From Candidatus Saccharimonadota bacterium (lineage in GTDB: Bacteria; Patescibacteriota; Gracilibacteria; BD1-5; UBA6164): 32,000 nucleotides of DNA. The stretch lies in assembly GCA_004563595.2 (NCBI GenBank), contig CP042461.1, forward strand, positions 930,001-962,000, read 5' to 3'. Both the position numbers and the translations under genes were made by a program. Each line of letters starts with the position of its first letter. Positions within the stretch are counted from its first letter, which is position 1. The notes beneath the pieces were generated by a model, which saw only the letters and a list, made by a program, of their open reading frames with translations, was not told the origin of the DNA and searched no databases. Below are positions 5,075-23,191 of this stretch, piece after piece.

Positions 5075-5096
5075 TTCTTACTTTGTTCTTACTTTG
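5075..5096 (+). promoter_or_regulatory. Site 1 of the 11-bp-phased direct repeat TTCTTAC-N4-TTCTTAC (candidate OmpR-family response-regulator box)
   Basis: ttcttactttg ttcttactttg is a perfect tandem of an 11-bp unit. It lies about 98 nt upstream of the ATG at 5191 and in the same orientation as that gene. Confidence 0.5.
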
Positions 5097-5190
5097 AATA
5101 TTTAACATATATAGTGTTAAGTATTATTTCTTAAACTTATTAAGGCTATTCTCTGTTATTATTTATTATTTTATATGTAACTATCATATT

Positions 5191-6444
5191 ATGAAAAAAT
5201 TAATATCACTTATATCAGCTCTTGCTCTGATAGTCTCATTTTCTTTTTCAGCTGTTTTTGCTGACCATAACTACTGACACAGTAAAAAAATAGAAAAAAC
5301 TGAGAAAAAAGTAAACAAAGCAAGTAAAAAAGCTTTAAAAGCTCTTGAAAAAAATAAAATAAAAAAATCTGCTAGATGAGAAAGAATTAAAAAGAAACTC
5401 AAAAAAGCTTTAAACAAAAGGTTTAAAAAGCTTGATAAATATTCTGTTGAAAAACAACTTGAAATCTATAACAGATTAAATGAAAGAATTGATCTACTCA
5501 TTGAAAGAAGTGGTGATAATGCTCTTCACTCTGCAGTATTTGAAATATTAAGAGAAATTGTCGATGCTAAAATTGCAGAGTTAACATGAACCTGATCGAT
5601 AGATGAAGATGACATTATAGATGATGTTGTTAATGGTGATGATGAAGATGAAGATGAAGACGAAGATGAGGACGAAGACGAAGACGAAGATGAAGATGAA
5701 GATGAAGGTGAAGGTGAAGGTGAAGATGAAGGTGAAGATGAAGGTGAAGGTGAAGGTGAAGGTGAAGGTGAAGATGAAGATGAAGGTGAAGGTGAAGATG
5801 AAGGTGAAGGTGAAGATGAAGGTGAAACAGAGGCTAGAGAAGCTATAGATGATGCAGCTGAAGAAATAACTAAAGCTGAAGATGCTATAAGCGAAGCCCA
5901 AGAAGACGGAAGAGAAACTGGAGCATCTGAACAATTAGTTGAGGAAGCAAAAGAAGCTCTTGAAGATGCAGAAGCTAAATTCGATGCAGGTGAATTTGAA
6001 GAAGCTGAAGATCTTGCTGATATAGCTGATGATTTAGCAAAAGATGCAAGATTAGAATACCTGTGAGAAACAGTTGAAGAACTTGAGGCAGATAGAGCAG
6101 ATGAAAATTTAGAAACAGAAGCTCAGGAAGCTATAGATAGTGCAACTGAAGAAATAACTGAATCTGAGGAGGCTATAGCAGAAGCTCAAGAAGATGATAG
6201 AGAAACTGGAGCATCTGAACAATTAGTTGAAGAAGCGAAAGAAGCTCTTGAAGATGCACAAACTAAATTTGATGCAGGTGAATTTGAAGAGGCTGAAGAT
6301 CTTGCTGAAGAAGCCCATGATTTAGCAAGAGATGCAAGACTAGAATACCTCTGAGAAACAGTCGAAGAACTTGAAGAAGATAGAACAGAAGATGAAGATG
6401 AAGATACAGGTACGGGAACTACAAGTACATGAACGACTAATTAG
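5191..6444 (+). CDS. Exported, extremely acidic repeat protein (signal peptide, Lys-rich helix, DE/GE low-complexity tract, two 91-aa helical repeats)
   Basis: 418 codons. Signal peptide MKKLISLISALALIVSFSFSAVFA|DH. A 63-codon run of (D/E/G)E follows. The module E..EAID.A.EEIT..E.AI.EAQED.RETGASEQLVEEAKEALEDA..KFDAGEFEEAEDLA..A.DLA.DARLEYL(G)ETVEEL..DR then occurs twice. Stop is TAG at 6442-6444. Confidence 0.8.
5638..5826 (+). repeat. Hexanucleotide (GAAGAT / GAAGGT / GAAGAC) microsatellite-like tract encoding the DE/GE run
   Basis: Read directly as gat gat gaa gat gaa gat gaa gac ... gaa ggt gaa ggt ... for 63 codons. This tract also generates the spurious ORFs 5581-5934(-) and 5621-5848(+) in the ORF track. 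Confidence 0.9.
5824..6384 (+). repeat. Two 273-nt in-frame near-tandem repeats (5824-6096 and 6112-6384) inside the acidic protein gene
   Basis: The two copies align codon for codon with mostly synonymous or conservative differences. Both carry TGA at the same position (LEYL-G-ETVEEL). Confidence 0.85.
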
Positions 6445-20924: not shown

Positions 20925-21500
20925 ATGAATACAACAACTGATTCAAAAAATCTGTTAGCACTCAATAAACCAAAGGGTTATATAGTCTCGCGTTCCGATG
21001 AACGTGGGCGAAAAACTGTTTATGACCTTTTACCTGATTGGGTTTTTGATGAGGGGTGGATGCCCATCGGACGACTTGATTTAGAGTCTAAGTGACTTTT
21101 ATTATTCACAAGAGATGGTAAAATAGGGAATGTATTAACCAAACCTGGAAATTGTATTAAGATATATGAAATATGGGTCAGAGGTCATGTAACACAGGAA
21201 CATATTGAAACCGCTTTAAAAGGAGTTGAAAGCCCACACGGTTTACTCAAAGCTCTCATCGTAGAAAAAATAGGTAATGGTGGAGCAAAAACAAAATTAA
21301 GAGTACAAATTGACGAAGGAAAGAATAGACACATCCGTCGTTTATTTGGAGCGATGAAAGACCCAAAATTTGGTACTCCTTTAAAAGTATTAAGCTTAAG
21401 TAGAATCAGTATCGGTAGTTTAAAACTCAATATCGAAAGCGGAAAATGGCGTTATCTTTCAGAAGATGAAGAGAGCATGTTACTGAAAGATTTGGCTTAA
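20925..21500 (+). CDS. Pseudouridine synthase, RsuA/RluB/RluE family (no S4 domain)
   Basis: 192 codons. LALNKPKGYIVSRSDERGRKTVYDLLP......PIGRLDLESK(G)LLLFTRDG...IYEIWVRG...IDEGKNRHIRRLF...L.RI.IGSL.L....GKWRYLSEDE. Only 1 of about 19 Gly codons is TGA. CGN Arg codons are used, and the GC content is visibly higher than in neighbouring genes. Confidence 0.85.
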
Positions 21501-21621
21501 TTAAAAATATAATTATTAAAATTAATTATTTTCTTTACAAAAAATAGAGATAAACTTACTATTGACTTATTTGATATTAATTATATTATATATATCTAAT
21601 CTTAAAGAAAAGGAGAAAAAT

Positions 21622-21936
21622 ATGAATAAGGTAATTGAAGGGATTAAGAGTAAGCTAATTGAAGGAATTAAGAACTATGTTGATCTACTCAATAAGTCAC
21701 TAATAATTAGAGTACCTTTCTATATTTTAGCAATTATGTTTATGATGGATCTATCTGGTATAATCAATTCATTTAGAATGCTTATTCACTATAATTGGTT
21801 TGATATAGAATTTACTCATTGGAAAAACCTGATAACTGGGCTATTCGAAGCTCCTGCTTTTACATATGTTATTTATCGTTTATTTTATGTATGGGGCAAA
21901 AAAACTCAAGATGTAAAATGAATAAAAAACGGCTAA
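21622..21936 (+). CDS. Small two-TM membrane protein; SD-led, with TGA only at the position of a probable ancestral stop
   Basis: AAGGAG lies 7 nt before the ATG at 21622. Five Gly codons are GGN. The only TGA (21919-21921) sits exactly where the standard-code ORF ends. Under code 25 the ORF reads 4 more codons (GIKNG) into the terminator stem, to TAA at 21934-21936. Confidence 0.55.
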
Positions 21937-21973
21937 TTATAGCCGTTTTTATGTTCAATATTTTAATGAAGGT
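21921..21973. repeat. Direct repeat copy A (terminator plus 3' flank plus tRNA-Cys 3'-end-like tail)
   Basis: aataaaaaacggctaattatagccgtttttatgttcaatattttaatgaaggt differs from copy B at 23073-23124 by about 5 substitutions and 1 indel. Three of the substitutions are in the hairpin loop. Confidence 0.75.
21924..21950 (+). terminator. Rho-independent terminator (copy A of the repeated terminator)
   Basis: The sequence aaaaacggcta atta tagccgttttt forms the hairpin. Confidence 0.7.
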
Positions 21974-22025: not shown

Positions 22026-22997
22026 TTAAAAATTAATACTATATGCATATAAACTTTTTTGTTTTAAAAATCTCTTTATCATTATATCTAAGTTCATGAT
22101 ATTTTTGTATTTTTCTAATACTTCAGTTTTACAATTTTCTATAATTTCATCTGAATAATAATGCTTATTAATACTTGATATATCTATTCATACATTTTTA
22201 AAAAAGTCTTCCTCTGTATCATGTAAACATTCAAGAATAATTGAATCCACATTTCTCATAACTTCTATATGGTCATCATATGTGAATCATTCATGGACCA
22301 ACCAACTTGTGAAATTTTCATGAGTTGGCATATCAATTGAAACATACTCTAATCTAATTCAATGATCTTTTAATTGAGTCGAAATATTTCTTAAATTATC
22401 AAAATATTTTTTTTGTTGATCTGGTTTAAGATAAATAAGTAATCACTCATTCATTACGAGTAATTTATCTAGCAATGGATTTCTCTCTTTACAACTTAAA
22501 ACCAACTGAACAACTTGATCAATTTCGTCCTCTACCACATTGTAGTTAGATAAAGTCGGTTTATTCACTCATTCCATTGATAAATAAAACTCTTCTTTCA
22601 AAGAAGTAACCTCTTCCCTATCAGTTTCAATATATTGATCTGCACTTATCTCATGATTATTGATCAAATTTATAGCTCTTGGAGAAAATCATGATGCTAC
22701 TTCTAATATAACGGTATTTTTATCAACTTTTTCAATTAATAAAGAATCTATTAATTCTCATCTTGCCTCAATAATTGCAGAAAAACTCAGTGCTGATATT
22801 TTTTTACCATAATCCTCTCAAAAAATAGCATCAAATCAATCCCATCTTTTTTGTAACTCTTGATCTTCCAATCAACTCTTTAATAGTAGATAATCTATAA
22901 TTTCTCTACTATAAGGGTATTCAATCAAACTTCTAAAAAAAGCTGTCAAAGTATAAGTTTCTGCTAAAGCTTCTTGTGAATTAATTTCTGGTTGCAT
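22026..22997 (-). CDS. Class I SAM-dependent methyltransferase-like protein (LCMT/TcmP-like)
   Basis: 324 codons. I checked every triplet and found no TAA or TAG. VILEVAS(G)FSPRA resembles the SAM-binding G-loop (V..LGAG.DTRA type), and LLVMNE(G)LLIYL resembles the EGLL.YL motif of the Leu carboxyl methyltransferase family. Both glycines are TGA, as in native genes. Confidence 0.6.
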
Positions 22998-23072: not shown

Positions 23073-23124
23073 AATAAAAACGGCTATAAATAGCCGTTTT
23101 TATATTCAATATTTTAATGGAGGT
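23073..23124. repeat. Direct repeat copy B (tRNA-Cys terminator plus spacer plus the last 7 nt of tRNA-Cys)
   Basis: The sequence is aataaaaacggctataaatagccgtttttatattcaatattttaatggaggt. The hairpin stems are conserved relative to copy A and the loop differs. Confidence 0.75.
23076..23101 (-). terminator. Terminator downstream of tRNA-Cys
   Basis: The palindromic sequence aaaaacggcta taaa tagccgttttt lies 17 nt past the tRNA 3' end. Confidence 0.65.
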
Positions 23125-23191
23125 GCCAAGCGGGTTCGAACCGCTGTATACGGTGTTGCAGACCGCTGTATAACCACTCTACCATGGCACC
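23118..23191 (-). tRNA. tRNA-Cys (anticodon GCA), CCA encoded
   Basis: The minus strand reads GGTGCCA TG GTAG AGTGGTT A TAC A GCGGT CTGCAAC ACCGT ATAC AGCGG TTCGAAC CCGCT TGGCACC T CCA. It has a 7-bp acceptor stem, a D-arm with a G13:A22 mismatch (typical of tRNA-Cys), an anticodon loop CU-GCA-AC, a T-loop TTCGAAC and discriminator U73. Confidence 0.9.

What the first reader, a model, noticed from the sequence alone, without database searches (positions are those of the whole stretch)
20925..21500. Pseudouridine synthase gene is a compositional island (GC-richer, CGN Arg codons, 1 UGA among ~19 Gly codons)
Stretches such as gtctcgcgttccgatgaacgtgggcgaaaaactg and gaggggtggatgcccatcggacgac contrast sharply with the flanking AT-rich genes. 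Arg is encoded by CGT, CGA and CGG, whereas AGA is almost universal elsewhere. The higher GC also creates the long antisense shadow ORF 21185-21430. The single TGA sits at the conserved Gly of the catalytic RLDxxSxGLLL motif. This fits a gene acquired from a standard-code organism and only beginning to ameliorate, or strong selection for unusual composition.
Basis: seen in the sequence. Interest (0 to 1): 0.6.

Follow-up and report, generated by a model that had tools for sequence, protein, structure and literature searches.

The report
Imported pseudouridine synthase gene, half-adapted
A bacterium that reads the stop codon TGA as glycine carries an RNA-modifying enzyme gene that still has the codon habits of ordinary-code Campylobacterota, so it is most likely a gene taken from them and only partly adapted; this is a clear but fairly ordinary case of gene transfer.

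Summary
ORF 20925-21500 encodes a 191-aa RsuA/RluB/RluE-family pseudouridine synthase without an S4 domain. It has 36.3% GC against 28.9% for the genome, 1 TGA among 19 Gly codons (genome 55% TGA) and 7 CGN among 12 Arg codons (genome 12.5%). It ranks in the top 1-3% of 1098 ORFs.

About 45% of the GC excess comes from amino-acid composition. The gene is also GC-richer than its flanks in its non-recoded relatives.

Its closest relatives, at 75-89% amino-acid identity, are standard-code Campylobacterota: Arcobacteraceae, Sulfurimonas and Sulfurovum. A dozen other code-25 Gracilibacteria also carry it. None of 200 other genomes sampled from its class has it.

Win's Arg codon family (CGN or AGR) matches the Campylobacterota homologues column by column. 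Across 13 Gracilibacteria copies, TGA use runs from 0 to 83% of Gly codons and rises with divergence from the Campylobacterota consensus. So the low TGA count reflects incomplete amelioration, not selection against TGA.

The gene sits beside a tRNA-Cys insertion hotspot. Its history inside Gracilibacteria disagrees with the genome history, which suggests repeated or secondary transfers. Tree rooting alone does not fix the direction of transfer.

Earlier notes of this scan describe other TGA-poor genes in the same genome. Verdict: a new member of a known kind, of moderate interest.

The parts
20925..21500 (+). Pseudouridine synthase gene (191 aa plus TAA stop). RsuA/RluB/RluE/RluF family, catalytic domain only, no S4 domain. 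Foreign codon usage.
   Evidence: PF00849 61.4 bits (cut-off 26.8). TIGR00093 127.7 bits (cut-off 109.3). AlphaFold pLDDT 92.4, TM 0.83 to the RluB catalytic domain 4lgt. Composition.
21078..21080 (+). GAT codon of Asp52, the catalytic aspartate in the GRLD motif.
   Evidence: Invariant column D52. Aligns with the GRLD motif of E. coli RluB. Its catalytic role rests on established knowledge of the family.
21093..21095 (+). The only in-frame TGA. It encodes Gly57 of the conserved xGLLL motif.
   Evidence: The same column is GGN in all 9 Campylobacterota copies tabulated. It is TGA in 5 of 13 code-25 copies.
21020..21430 (-). Antisense shadow ORF (136 codons). Not a gene.
   Evidence: The longest open stretch in this frame varies from 40 to 176 codons among 65 orthologues.
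21610..21936 (+). Neighbouring small hydrophobic ORF of 104 aa (ATG at 21622). It has an AAGGAG Shine-Dalgarno sequence at 21610-21615 and a relic TGA stop at 21919-21921, five codons before TAA. Probably a second import from a standard-code source.
   Evidence: A terminator hairpin follows at 21925-21950.
21925..21973 (+). First copy of a 49-nt direct repeat: a terminator hairpin plus a degenerate tRNA-Cys 3' end.
   Evidence: 90% identity to 23076-23124; 2 matches found against 0.02 expected by chance.
22026..22997 (-). LCM-like methyltransferase gene (323 aa, 10 TGA among 11 Gly codons), bracketed by the 49-nt repeats. A later insertion at the tRNA-Cys site.
23076..23124 (+). Second copy of the 49-nt direct repeat. 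It overlaps the true 3' end of tRNA-Cys and its terminator.
23118..23191 (-). tRNA-Cys (GCA). It marks the boundary between a conserved gene block and the variable region that holds the imported gene.
   Evidence: The same tRNA lies beside the orthologue in L041, L043 (140 nt after the stop), L054, L102 (41 nt after the stop) and L065.

Best explanation
The gene encodes an intact, selectively maintained pseudouridine synthase of the RsuA/RluB/RluE/RluF family that lacks the S4 domain. By inference it isomerises a specific uridine, most likely in rRNA, using Asp52.

It is not native to Gracilibacteria. It entered this lineage as a single-gene fragment from a standard-code bacterium. The donor was most likely a Campylobacterota of about 30-37% GC, resembling Arcobacteraceae or Sulfurimonadaceae. 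The gene landed in the variable region next to tRNA-Cys.

All its glycines were GGN, so it was readable at once under code 25. Since then AT-biased mutation has been converting it: GGA to TGA, CGA to AGA, and third positions to A/T. The two first-position synonymous switches each need one specific first-position change from one specific codon. I infer that this makes them slower than third-position change.

The window's copy is the least converted full-length copy of 13 known code-25 copies. It has 1 TGA, and all 11 shared Arg columns are still in the donor's codon family. This produces the compositional island.

Shown here: family membership, composition, relatives, distribution and codon-by-codon inheritance. 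Inferred: the direction of transfer, the donor group, the enzymatic target and the number of transfers.
For: Family and integrity:
- Pfam and NCBIfam scores are above their cut-offs and no S4 domain is found.
- The predicted fold matches the RluB, RsuA and RluE catalytic domains.
- All 13 invariant family residues are present.
- dN/dS is about 0.1 against L041.

Foreign origin:
- The best hits are 81-92% identical and mix a few Gracilibacteria with many Campylobacterota.
- Of 69 loci in species genomes, 10 read as code 25 and the rest as standard code, including complete Sulfurovum and Halarcobacter chromosomes.
- Orthologues occur in only 3 of 40 relatives and in 0 of 200 further genomes of the class.
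- They occur in 10 of 61 and 17 of 61 species of two Campylobacterota families.
- The genome keeps its own S4-bearing RluF-like paralogue with 10 TGA, 33% identical to the target.

Codon evidence:
- 11 of 11 shared Arg columns have the same codon family (CGN or AGR) in win and L042.
- The gene is compositionally at home in L044: z 0.0, gene GC 0.362 against win's 0.365, flank CGN share 52%.
- TGA share in code-25 copies runs from 0 of 15 to 15 of 18 and falls with identity to the Campylobacterota consensus (Spearman rho -0.75, p 0.003).

Timing:
- Excess synonymous codon identity of win is +0.21 to +0.23 against Campylobacterota copies (z 6.6-7.4) and +0.23 to +0.28 against L041 and L043.
- For native flanking genes between the same Gracilibacteria genomes it is 0 to +0.07.

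Placement and context:
- In the DNA tree the code-25 copies form a clade (support 93) that is sister to L044 (95).
- A starred clade (96/89) holds the 13 code-25 copies plus 7 Campylobacterota copies.
- The tRNA-Cys neighbourhood and the repeat-flanked neighbouring insertion point to an insertion hotspot.
Against: - With distant outgroups the careful protein tree roots on the long L023 (code-25) branch. That leaves Campylobacterota as the derived group. So the direction of transfer is not fixed by topology.
- The gene is GC- and CGN-richer than its flanks in most Campylobacterota as well (median z 1.7), and it is patchy there. Campylobacterota may themselves be recipients.
- No integrase, att site or other mobile-element gene accompanies the target itself.
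- Another TGA-free gene of this genome, DapD, is only 40-51% identical to Campylobacterota, so they are not a general donor.
Confidence: 0.8

Rival explanations
1. The gene is old and native to this Gracilibacteria lineage. Its GGN/CGN-rich, GC-richer composition is kept by selection, for example for accurate or efficient translation of a very conserved enzyme. Earlier notes of this scan concluded this for some other TGA-free genes of the same genome.
For: - Native highly expressed genes here (EF-Tu, BipA, a pilin) also avoid TGA.
- The protein is unusually conserved, at 70-90% identity across phyla.
- Part of the GC excess follows from amino-acid composition.
- Several code-25 copies are TGA-poor.
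Against: - TGA is freely used in other orthologues (9-15 of about 18 Gly codons in L102, L096, L023, L024), including the motif Gly. Win's own single TGA is at that Gly.
- Native TGA-avoiding genes use AGA only and have low GC3. The target has donor-type CGN codons.
- The gene was not found in 200 other genomes of the class.
- Its closest relatives use the standard code.
Confidence: 0.04
2. The transfer ran the other way. The family arose in Gracilibacteria, and a TGA-free copy passed into Campylobacterota and spread there.
For: - In the careful protein tree the outgroups attach to a code-25 branch (L023) and 51 Campylobacterota copies form one clade with support 91/86.
- The gene is patchy and slightly atypical in composition in Campylobacterota.
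Against: - The root sits where outgroup branches of 1.8-2.7 substitutions per site meet the longest ingroup branch. That is the classic setting for long-branch attraction.
- A tree with more outgroups placed the code-25 copies as a derived clade.
- The gene is far rarer in Gracilibacteria than in Campylobacterota.
- A gene resident under code 25 would be expected to carry many TGA and few CGN codons. Yet the least-diverged code-25 copies are the most donor-like.
- The composition fits L044 and L042 genomes, not G000.
Confidence: 0.06
3. Both Campylobacterota and Gracilibacteria received the gene from a third, unsampled source, such as a phage, plasmid or another phylum sharing sulfidic or marine habitats.
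For: - The gene is GC-richer than its flanks almost everywhere.
- It is patchy within families.
- The gene tree mixes Campylobacterota genera and includes two Gammaproteobacteria.
- Its neighbourhood is not conserved.
Against: - No mobile-element genes flank it in 52 standard-code loci. The neighbours there are ordinary chromosomal genes: ABC-F, an RlmI-like methyltransferase, TruA and shikimate kinase.
- The nearest sequences outside the clade are only 53-62% identical.
- The code-25 copies share N9, N118, S157 and L166 specifically with an Arcobacteraceae contig.
Confidence: 0.09
4. Assembly or binning artefact: a Campylobacterota fragment was wrongly joined into the Gracilibacteria contig.
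For: The composition is foreign, and high similarity to other copies stops at the ORF ends.
Against: - The genome is a single 1.34-Mb contig.
- The gene carries an in-frame TGA at an invariant Gly, so it is readable only under code 25.
- A 99% identical protein is on record from another contig of 413 kb.
- Twelve other code-25 genomes carry it, six of them next to the same tRNA-Cys or gene block.
Confidence: 0.01

Closest known systems
E. coli RluB (23S rRNA pseudouridine 2605 synthase), catalytic domain (PDB 4lab, 4lgt)
   Same: It is the best sequence match among solved structures (E 9e-19) and the best structural match (TM 0.83, rmsd 2.1). It shares the GRLD catalytic motif and the NRxxRR motif.
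   Different: The target has no N-terminal S4 domain and no C-terminal tail. It scores 79 bits against the RluB equivalog cut-off of 290. Identity is about 30-40% over the catalytic domain.
E. coli RluE (23S rRNA pseudouridine 2457 synthase; PDB 2oml, 2olw)
   Same: Same family, same S4-less architecture of about 190-220 aa, same fold (TM 0.77).
   Different: It scores only 51.5 bits against the RluE equivalog cut-off of 284, and the sequence match covers only the first half. It is therefore not an RluE orthologue, and its target uridine is unknown.
Amelioration of horizontally transferred genes (Lawrence and Ochman model; cited from my own knowledge)
   Same: A foreign gene drifts toward the recipient's composition. 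The degree of conversion varies among copies and tracks divergence.
   Different: Here the recipient uses another genetic code. Uptake of the recoded codon TGA adds a separate, slower gauge than GC3. For example, L041 has GC3 of 0.09 but only 2 TGA among 18 Gly codons.
Other TGA-poor or TGA-free genes and small islands noted earlier in this same genome (scan notes e1-2808152, e1-2924466, e1-2808004)
   Same: They show the same signature: few or no TGA codons, higher GC, and sometimes Shine-Dalgarno sites or relic TGA stops. The small ORF next to the target shows the last two features.
   Different: For this gene a donor group can be named at 80-89% identity. A series of 13 orthologues also shows TGA being taken up, which argues against selection keeping TGA out, as some of those notes concluded for other genes.

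Membership tests
RsuA/RluB/RluE/RluF pseudouridine synthase family (Pfam PF00849, NCBIfam TIGR00093) | Profile score above the curated cut-off | tested here: met
   PF00849 scores 61.4 bits against a cut-off of 26.8. TIGR00093 scores 127.7 against 109.3.
RsuA/RluB/RluE/RluF pseudouridine synthase family (Pfam PF00849, NCBIfam TIGR00093) | Catalytic Asp in the (G)RLD motif and the conserved motif residues | tested here: met
   G49, L51, D52, G57, L58, Y81, R135 and R176 are invariant in a 30-sequence alignment and all are present in the window's protein. The motif aligns with GRLD of RluB.
RsuA/RluB/RluE/RluF pseudouridine synthase family (Pfam PF00849, NCBIfam TIGR00093) | Pseudouridine synthase catalytic fold | tested here: met
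   The model has pLDDT 92.4. Foldseek gives TM 0.77-0.83 to RluB, RsuA, RluE and RluF.
RsuA/RluB/RluE/RluF pseudouridine synthase family (Pfam PF00849, NCBIfam TIGR00093) | Pseudouridine synthase activity on a defined RNA uridine | not testable with these tools
   No assay or modification map is available.
Equivalog of a named E. coli enzyme (RluB, RluE, RluF, RsuA) | Score above the NCBIfam equivalog cut-off | tested here: not met
   RluB 79 against 290; RluF 60 against 318; RsuA 56 against 275; RluE 51.5 against 284.
Equivalog of a named E. coli enzyme (RluB, RluE, RluF, RsuA) | N-terminal S4 RNA-binding domain (present in RsuA, RluB and RluF; absent in RluE) | tested here: not met
   The Pfam match starts at residue 9 and no S4 hit is found. 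The model begins directly with the catalytic-domain strand at residues 6-15.
Horizontally acquired gene | Composition and codon usage atypical for the host genome | tested here: met
   Among 1098 ORFs it ranks 12 for per-codon atypicality, 15 for CGN share, 18 for GC and 35 for low TGA share.
Horizontally acquired gene | Closest relatives lie in an unrelated lineage, and the gene is rare in the host's own lineage | tested here: met
   It is 75-89% identical to standard-code Campylobacterota. Orthologues occur in 3 of 40 relatives and 0 of 200 further genomes of the class.
Horizontally acquired gene | Composition matches the proposed donor | tested here: met
   In L044 the gene GC is 0.362 and equals the GC expected from the flanks' codon usage (z 0.0). 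Win's gene GC is 0.365. Arg codon families match in 11 of 11 shared columns.
Horizontally acquired gene | Direction of transfer shown by a rooted tree | tested here: inconclusive
   The root moves with the choice of outgroups. Monophyly of the code-25 copies is neither required nor rejected (AU p 0.54).
Horizontally acquired gene | Integration signature (tRNA site, flanking repeats, integrase) | tested here: inconclusive
   tRNA-Cys adjoins the locus in 6 genomes. The 49-nt repeats bracket the neighbouring methyltransferase gene, not the target. No integrase is present.

The most novel reading that the evidence does not exclude
The gene did not enter Gracilibacteria once. It was imported repeatedly, or passed between Gracilibacteria, from one Arcobacteraceae/Sulfurimonas-like line into the same tRNA-Cys hotspot.

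That would mark these Campylobacterota as the physical partners (hosts or prey) of this Gracilibacteria group. It would also make the share of TGA among glycine codons a usable clock for dating imports across the code boundary.
Probability: 0.2. Interest if true: 0.6.

Novelty: new member of a known kind. Interest (0 to 1): 0.38.

Why it matters
- It documents gene flow across a genetic-code boundary with a nameable donor group. It shows that a standard-code gene works at once in a UGA=Gly cell.
- The 13 orthologues form a natural series in which uptake of the recoded codon runs from 0 to 83% of Gly codons. Uptake lags behind GC3 change and tracks divergence. This gives a way to tell 'not yet ameliorated' from 'TGA kept out by selection' for the many TGA-poor genes of such genomes.
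- The donor signal (Arcobacteraceae/Sulfurimonadaceae-like) is a testable clue to the partners of an uncultured lineage whose host is unknown. The genome matches the closed 1.343-Mb, 28.87% GC Gracilibacterium of PMC6851277, whose authors state that the host is not known.
- As a single gene of ordinary function, it is not a surprise to specialists.

Tried and rejected
- Conserved antisense gene as the cause of the high conservation: rejected. The antisense frame is open for only 40 codons in some orthologues.
- Mosaic gene made by internal recombination: no support. 90-nt windows show even identity to both Gracilibacteria and Campylobacterota copies.
- Multi-gene co-transfer: rejected. Flanking genes shared between code-25 and standard-code loci are only 24-47% identical. 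High nucleotide similarity runs from about 17 nt before the ATG to the stop codon.
- Mobile-element cargo in Campylobacterota: not supported. The neighbours are ordinary chromosomal genes.
- Campylobacterota as the general donor of this genome's TGA-free genes: not supported for DapD, which is 40-51% identical.
- A third copy of the tRNA-Cys repeat that would bracket the target itself: not found.
- Plain dS for codon-biased genes was misleading, because EF-Tu 'saturates' at pS of about 0.38. I replaced it with a within-amino-acid codon permutation test.
- The AU test of monophyly of the code-25 copies was uninformative (p 0.54).

Full report
**Setting.** The window is G000:C1:930001-962000 of a single-contig genome of 1,343,103 bases with 28.9% GC. 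Long ORFs appear only when TGA is read as an amino acid. Genome-wide, TGA makes up 55% of glycine codons and CGN 12.5% of arginine codons. Size and GC equal those of the closed Gracilibacterium (BD1-5) genome from an oil-degrading enrichment (1.343 Mb, 28.87% GC). Its authors state that the host is unknown (PMC6851277). I did not confirm the identity by sequence.

**The observation.**
- ORF 20925-21500 gives 191 aa with one TGA at codon 57.
- Its GC of 0.363 is the highest of the 33 ORFs in the window and ranks 18 of 1098 ORFs in the genome.
- Gly is encoded by 18 GGN and 1 TGA (binomial p 5e-6). Arg is encoded by 5 AGA and 7 CGN (p 2e-4).
- The CGN codons are 5 CGT and 2 CGA; there is no in-frame CGG.
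- Encoding the same protein with the genome's average synonymous usage would give 0.324 GC, against a genome mean of 0.291. So a little under half of the GC excess is a property of the protein. The rest is codon choice (z 3.6, rank 34; per-codon atypicality rank 12).
- The antisense open frame (21020-21430) is not conserved among orthologues.

**The gene is an outlier, but not a unique one.** About 50 ORFs avoid TGA comparably, and they fall into two classes.
- Native, presumably highly expressed genes (EF-Tu, BipA, a pilin) use AGA only and have very low GC3.
- A second class has almost no TGA, many CGN codons and GC of 0.35-0.38. It includes PurL, PurM, a PurC-PurE fusion, PurB, DapD and an AdoMet decarboxylase.
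- The target belongs to the second class. Earlier notes of this scan discuss several such genes in this genome and reach differing conclusions: import for some, selection for others.

**What the protein is.**
- Pfam PF00849 and NCBIfam TIGR00093 both score above their cut-offs. None of the E. coli equivalog models (RluB, RluE, RluF, RsuA) is reached, and no S4 domain is found.
- The AlphaFold model (pLDDT 92.4) superposes on the catalytic domains of RluB, RsuA, RluE and RluF at TM 0.77-0.83.
- All 13 invariant family residues are present, including Asp52 of GRLD and Gly57, which TGA encodes.
- The genome also has a native RluF-like paralogue with an S4 domain: 234 aa, 10 TGA, 33% identical to the target. 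The target is therefore an addition, not a replacement.
- dN/dS of about 0.1 against the L041 copy indicates purifying selection.

**Relatives.**
- The best database hits are 81-92% identical. They mix a few Gracilibacteria with many Campylobacterota.
- In species-representative genomes, 69 loci encode a close relative.
- To assign the genetic code I compared coverage by long ORFs with TGA read as stop and as sense. Ten loci read as code 25. All others read as standard code, among them complete Sulfurovum and Halarcobacter chromosomes and two Gammaproteobacteria.
- Outside this tight clade the nearest full-length proteins are only 53-62% identical.
- Distribution: orthologues occur in 3 of 40 relatives and in 0 of 200 further genomes of the class. 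They occur in 6 of 151 Campylobacterota overall, and in 10 of 61 and 17 of 61 species of the families around Sulfurovum and Arcobacter.
- In Campylobacterota the neighbours are ordinary chromosomal genes: ABC-F, an RlmI-like methyltransferase, TruA and shikimate kinase. Synteny there is weak and no mobile-element genes are present.

**Codon-level inheritance.**
- In a codon alignment, win's Arg columns carry the same codon family (CGN or AGR) as the nearest Campylobacterota copy in 11 of 11 shared columns. More diverged code-25 copies have switched to AGA at several of them.
- TGA counts in the 13 code-25 copies are 0, 1, 2, 2, 2, 3, 3, 3, 5, 9, 10, 11 and 15. The TGA share falls with identity to the Campylobacterota consensus (rho -0.75, p 0.003; the copies are not independent).
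- TGA occurs even at the motif Gly in five copies. So TGA is tolerated, and its rarity in win reflects lack of change rather than selection.
- GC3 follows each host genome (0.06 to 0.39), while TGA uptake lags. L041, for example, has GC3 of 0.09 but only 2 TGA among 18 Gly codons. GGA to TGA and CGA to AGA each need one specific first-position change from one specific codon, which I infer makes them slower.
- In the Arcobacteraceae contig L044 the gene's GC (0.362) equals the expectation from flank codon usage (z 0.0) and equals win's GC (0.365). In most other Campylobacterota the gene is mildly GC- and CGN-rich (median z 1.7).

**Trees.**
- A quick protein tree with twelve outgroups and a DNA tree both place all code-25 copies in one clade (support 83 and 93). 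They lie next to L044, L042 and L046.
- A careful protein tree gives a starred clade (96/89) of the 13 code-25 copies plus 7 Campylobacterota copies.
- That careful tree does not recover monophyly of the code-25 copies, and it roots on the long L023 branch.
- An AU test does not reject monophyly (p 0.54; the constrained tree scores slightly higher).
- No residue is exclusive to the code-25 copies. N9, N118, S157 and L166 are shared with L044.
- Topology therefore does not settle the direction of transfer. I infer the direction from distribution, from the TGA barrier and from the compositional fit.

**Timing and an unresolved conflict.**
- I shuffled codons within amino-acid classes to measure residual positional codon identity.
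- Native flanking genes between win and L041, L043 or L054 are at or near the saturated expectation (excess 0 to +0.07, z -0.2 to 2.5). EF-Tu and BipA show +0.06 to +0.09.
- The target shows +0.23 to +0.28 against L041 and L043 (z 8-9), and +0.21 to +0.23 against Campylobacterota L042 and L052 (z 6.6-7.4).
- By EF-Tu and BipA, the genome nearest to G000 is G020 (91% and 88% identity). Yet the G020 copy of the target is only 76% identical, has 11 TGA, is saturated at synonymous sites and lies in another context.
- The more distant G045 carries a copy that is 91% identical.
- Both TGA-poor copies (win, L041, L043, L054) and TGA-rich copies (L024, L102) lie next to the same conserved gene block. 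tRNA-Cys(GCA) lies between the gene and that block in win, L041, L043, L054 and L102, but not in L024, where it lies about 7 kb away.
- Taken at face value, win's copy shares a more recent ancestor with some Campylobacterota copies than G000 shares with its nearest sampled relative.
- One import followed only by vertical descent does not fit. The possible explanations are repeated imports from one donor line into a hotspot, transfer between Gracilibacteria, or allele replacement. I could not separate them. No mosaic structure was seen, and similarity is confined to the ORF plus about 17 nt upstream.

**Local context.**
- The region between the target and tRNA-Cys is variable among genomes, holding 0-2 unrelated genes.
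- In the window it holds a 104-aa ORF and an LCM-like methyltransferase gene.
- The 104-aa ORF has an AAGGAG Shine-Dalgarno sequence and a relic TGA stop five codons before TAA.
- The methyltransferase gene is bracketed by 49-nt direct repeats. One of them is the 3' end of tRNA-Cys plus its terminator.
- This supports an insertion hotspot, but the repeats do not bracket the target itself.

**Verdict.** The compositional island is real and is best explained as a single-gene import from a standard-code donor, most likely Campylobacterota. The gene is still largely in its original codon dress. This is a new member of a known kind. The graded TGA series and the incongruent history within Gracilibacteria are the parts worth following up.

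Noticed in passing
window 21610-21936: A small 104-aa hydrophobic ORF lies right after the target. It has an AAGGAG Shine-Dalgarno sequence (21610-21615). Its only TGA is at codon 100 (21919-21921), five codons before TAA, which looks like a relic standard-code stop. A terminator hairpin follows at 21925-21950. This is probably another import.
   Followed up: partly
window 21925-21973 and 23076-23124: A 49-nt direct repeat (90% identical). The second copy is the 3' end of tRNA-Cys (23118-23191, minus strand) plus its terminator. The pair brackets the LCM-like methyltransferase gene 22026-22997. This looks like an insertion at the tRNA 3' end, without an integrase.
   Followed up: partly
window 5083-6444: A secreted-looking acidic protein with long DE/GE repeats and two about 100-aa internal repeats. 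It accounts for the highest GC (0.40) and the purine-skew peak of the window.
   Followed up: no
G000 genome-wide (e.g. C1:307107-310895, 115833-117149, 532039-533091): There are two classes of TGA-avoiding genes. Native expressed genes use AGA only and have GC3 of about 0.1-0.15. A CGN-rich class with GC of 0.35-0.38 includes PurL, PurM, a PurC-PurE fusion, PurB, DapD and AdoMet decarboxylase. DapD is only 40-51% identical to Campylobacterota, so its source differs from that of the target.
   Followed up: partly
L110-L117 (EF-Tu and BipA of G020, G024, G045, G003): EF-Tu and BipA have no TGA in G000 and G020 but 6-28 TGA in G045, G003 and G024. So TGA avoidance in highly expressed genes is lineage-specific within one family.
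   Followed up: no
L107 (CAZKLD010000009.1) and L064 (CAMCYD010000139.1): L107 is titled Candidatus Peribacteria, but its ORFs are open only under code 25. L064 is titled Helicobacter pylori but groups with Sulfuricurvum. Both record labels look wrong.
   Followed up: no
L070 and L074: Two Gammaproteobacteria (one in Thiotrichaceae; GC about 0.49) carry the same gene nested among Sulfurovum copies (support 99-100). This is a further inter-phylum transfer of this gene.
   Followed up: no
G236:C2:110718-111263 and 116265-116810: One Sulfurovaceae-family genome holds two copies of the gene 5.5 kb apart.
   Followed up: no
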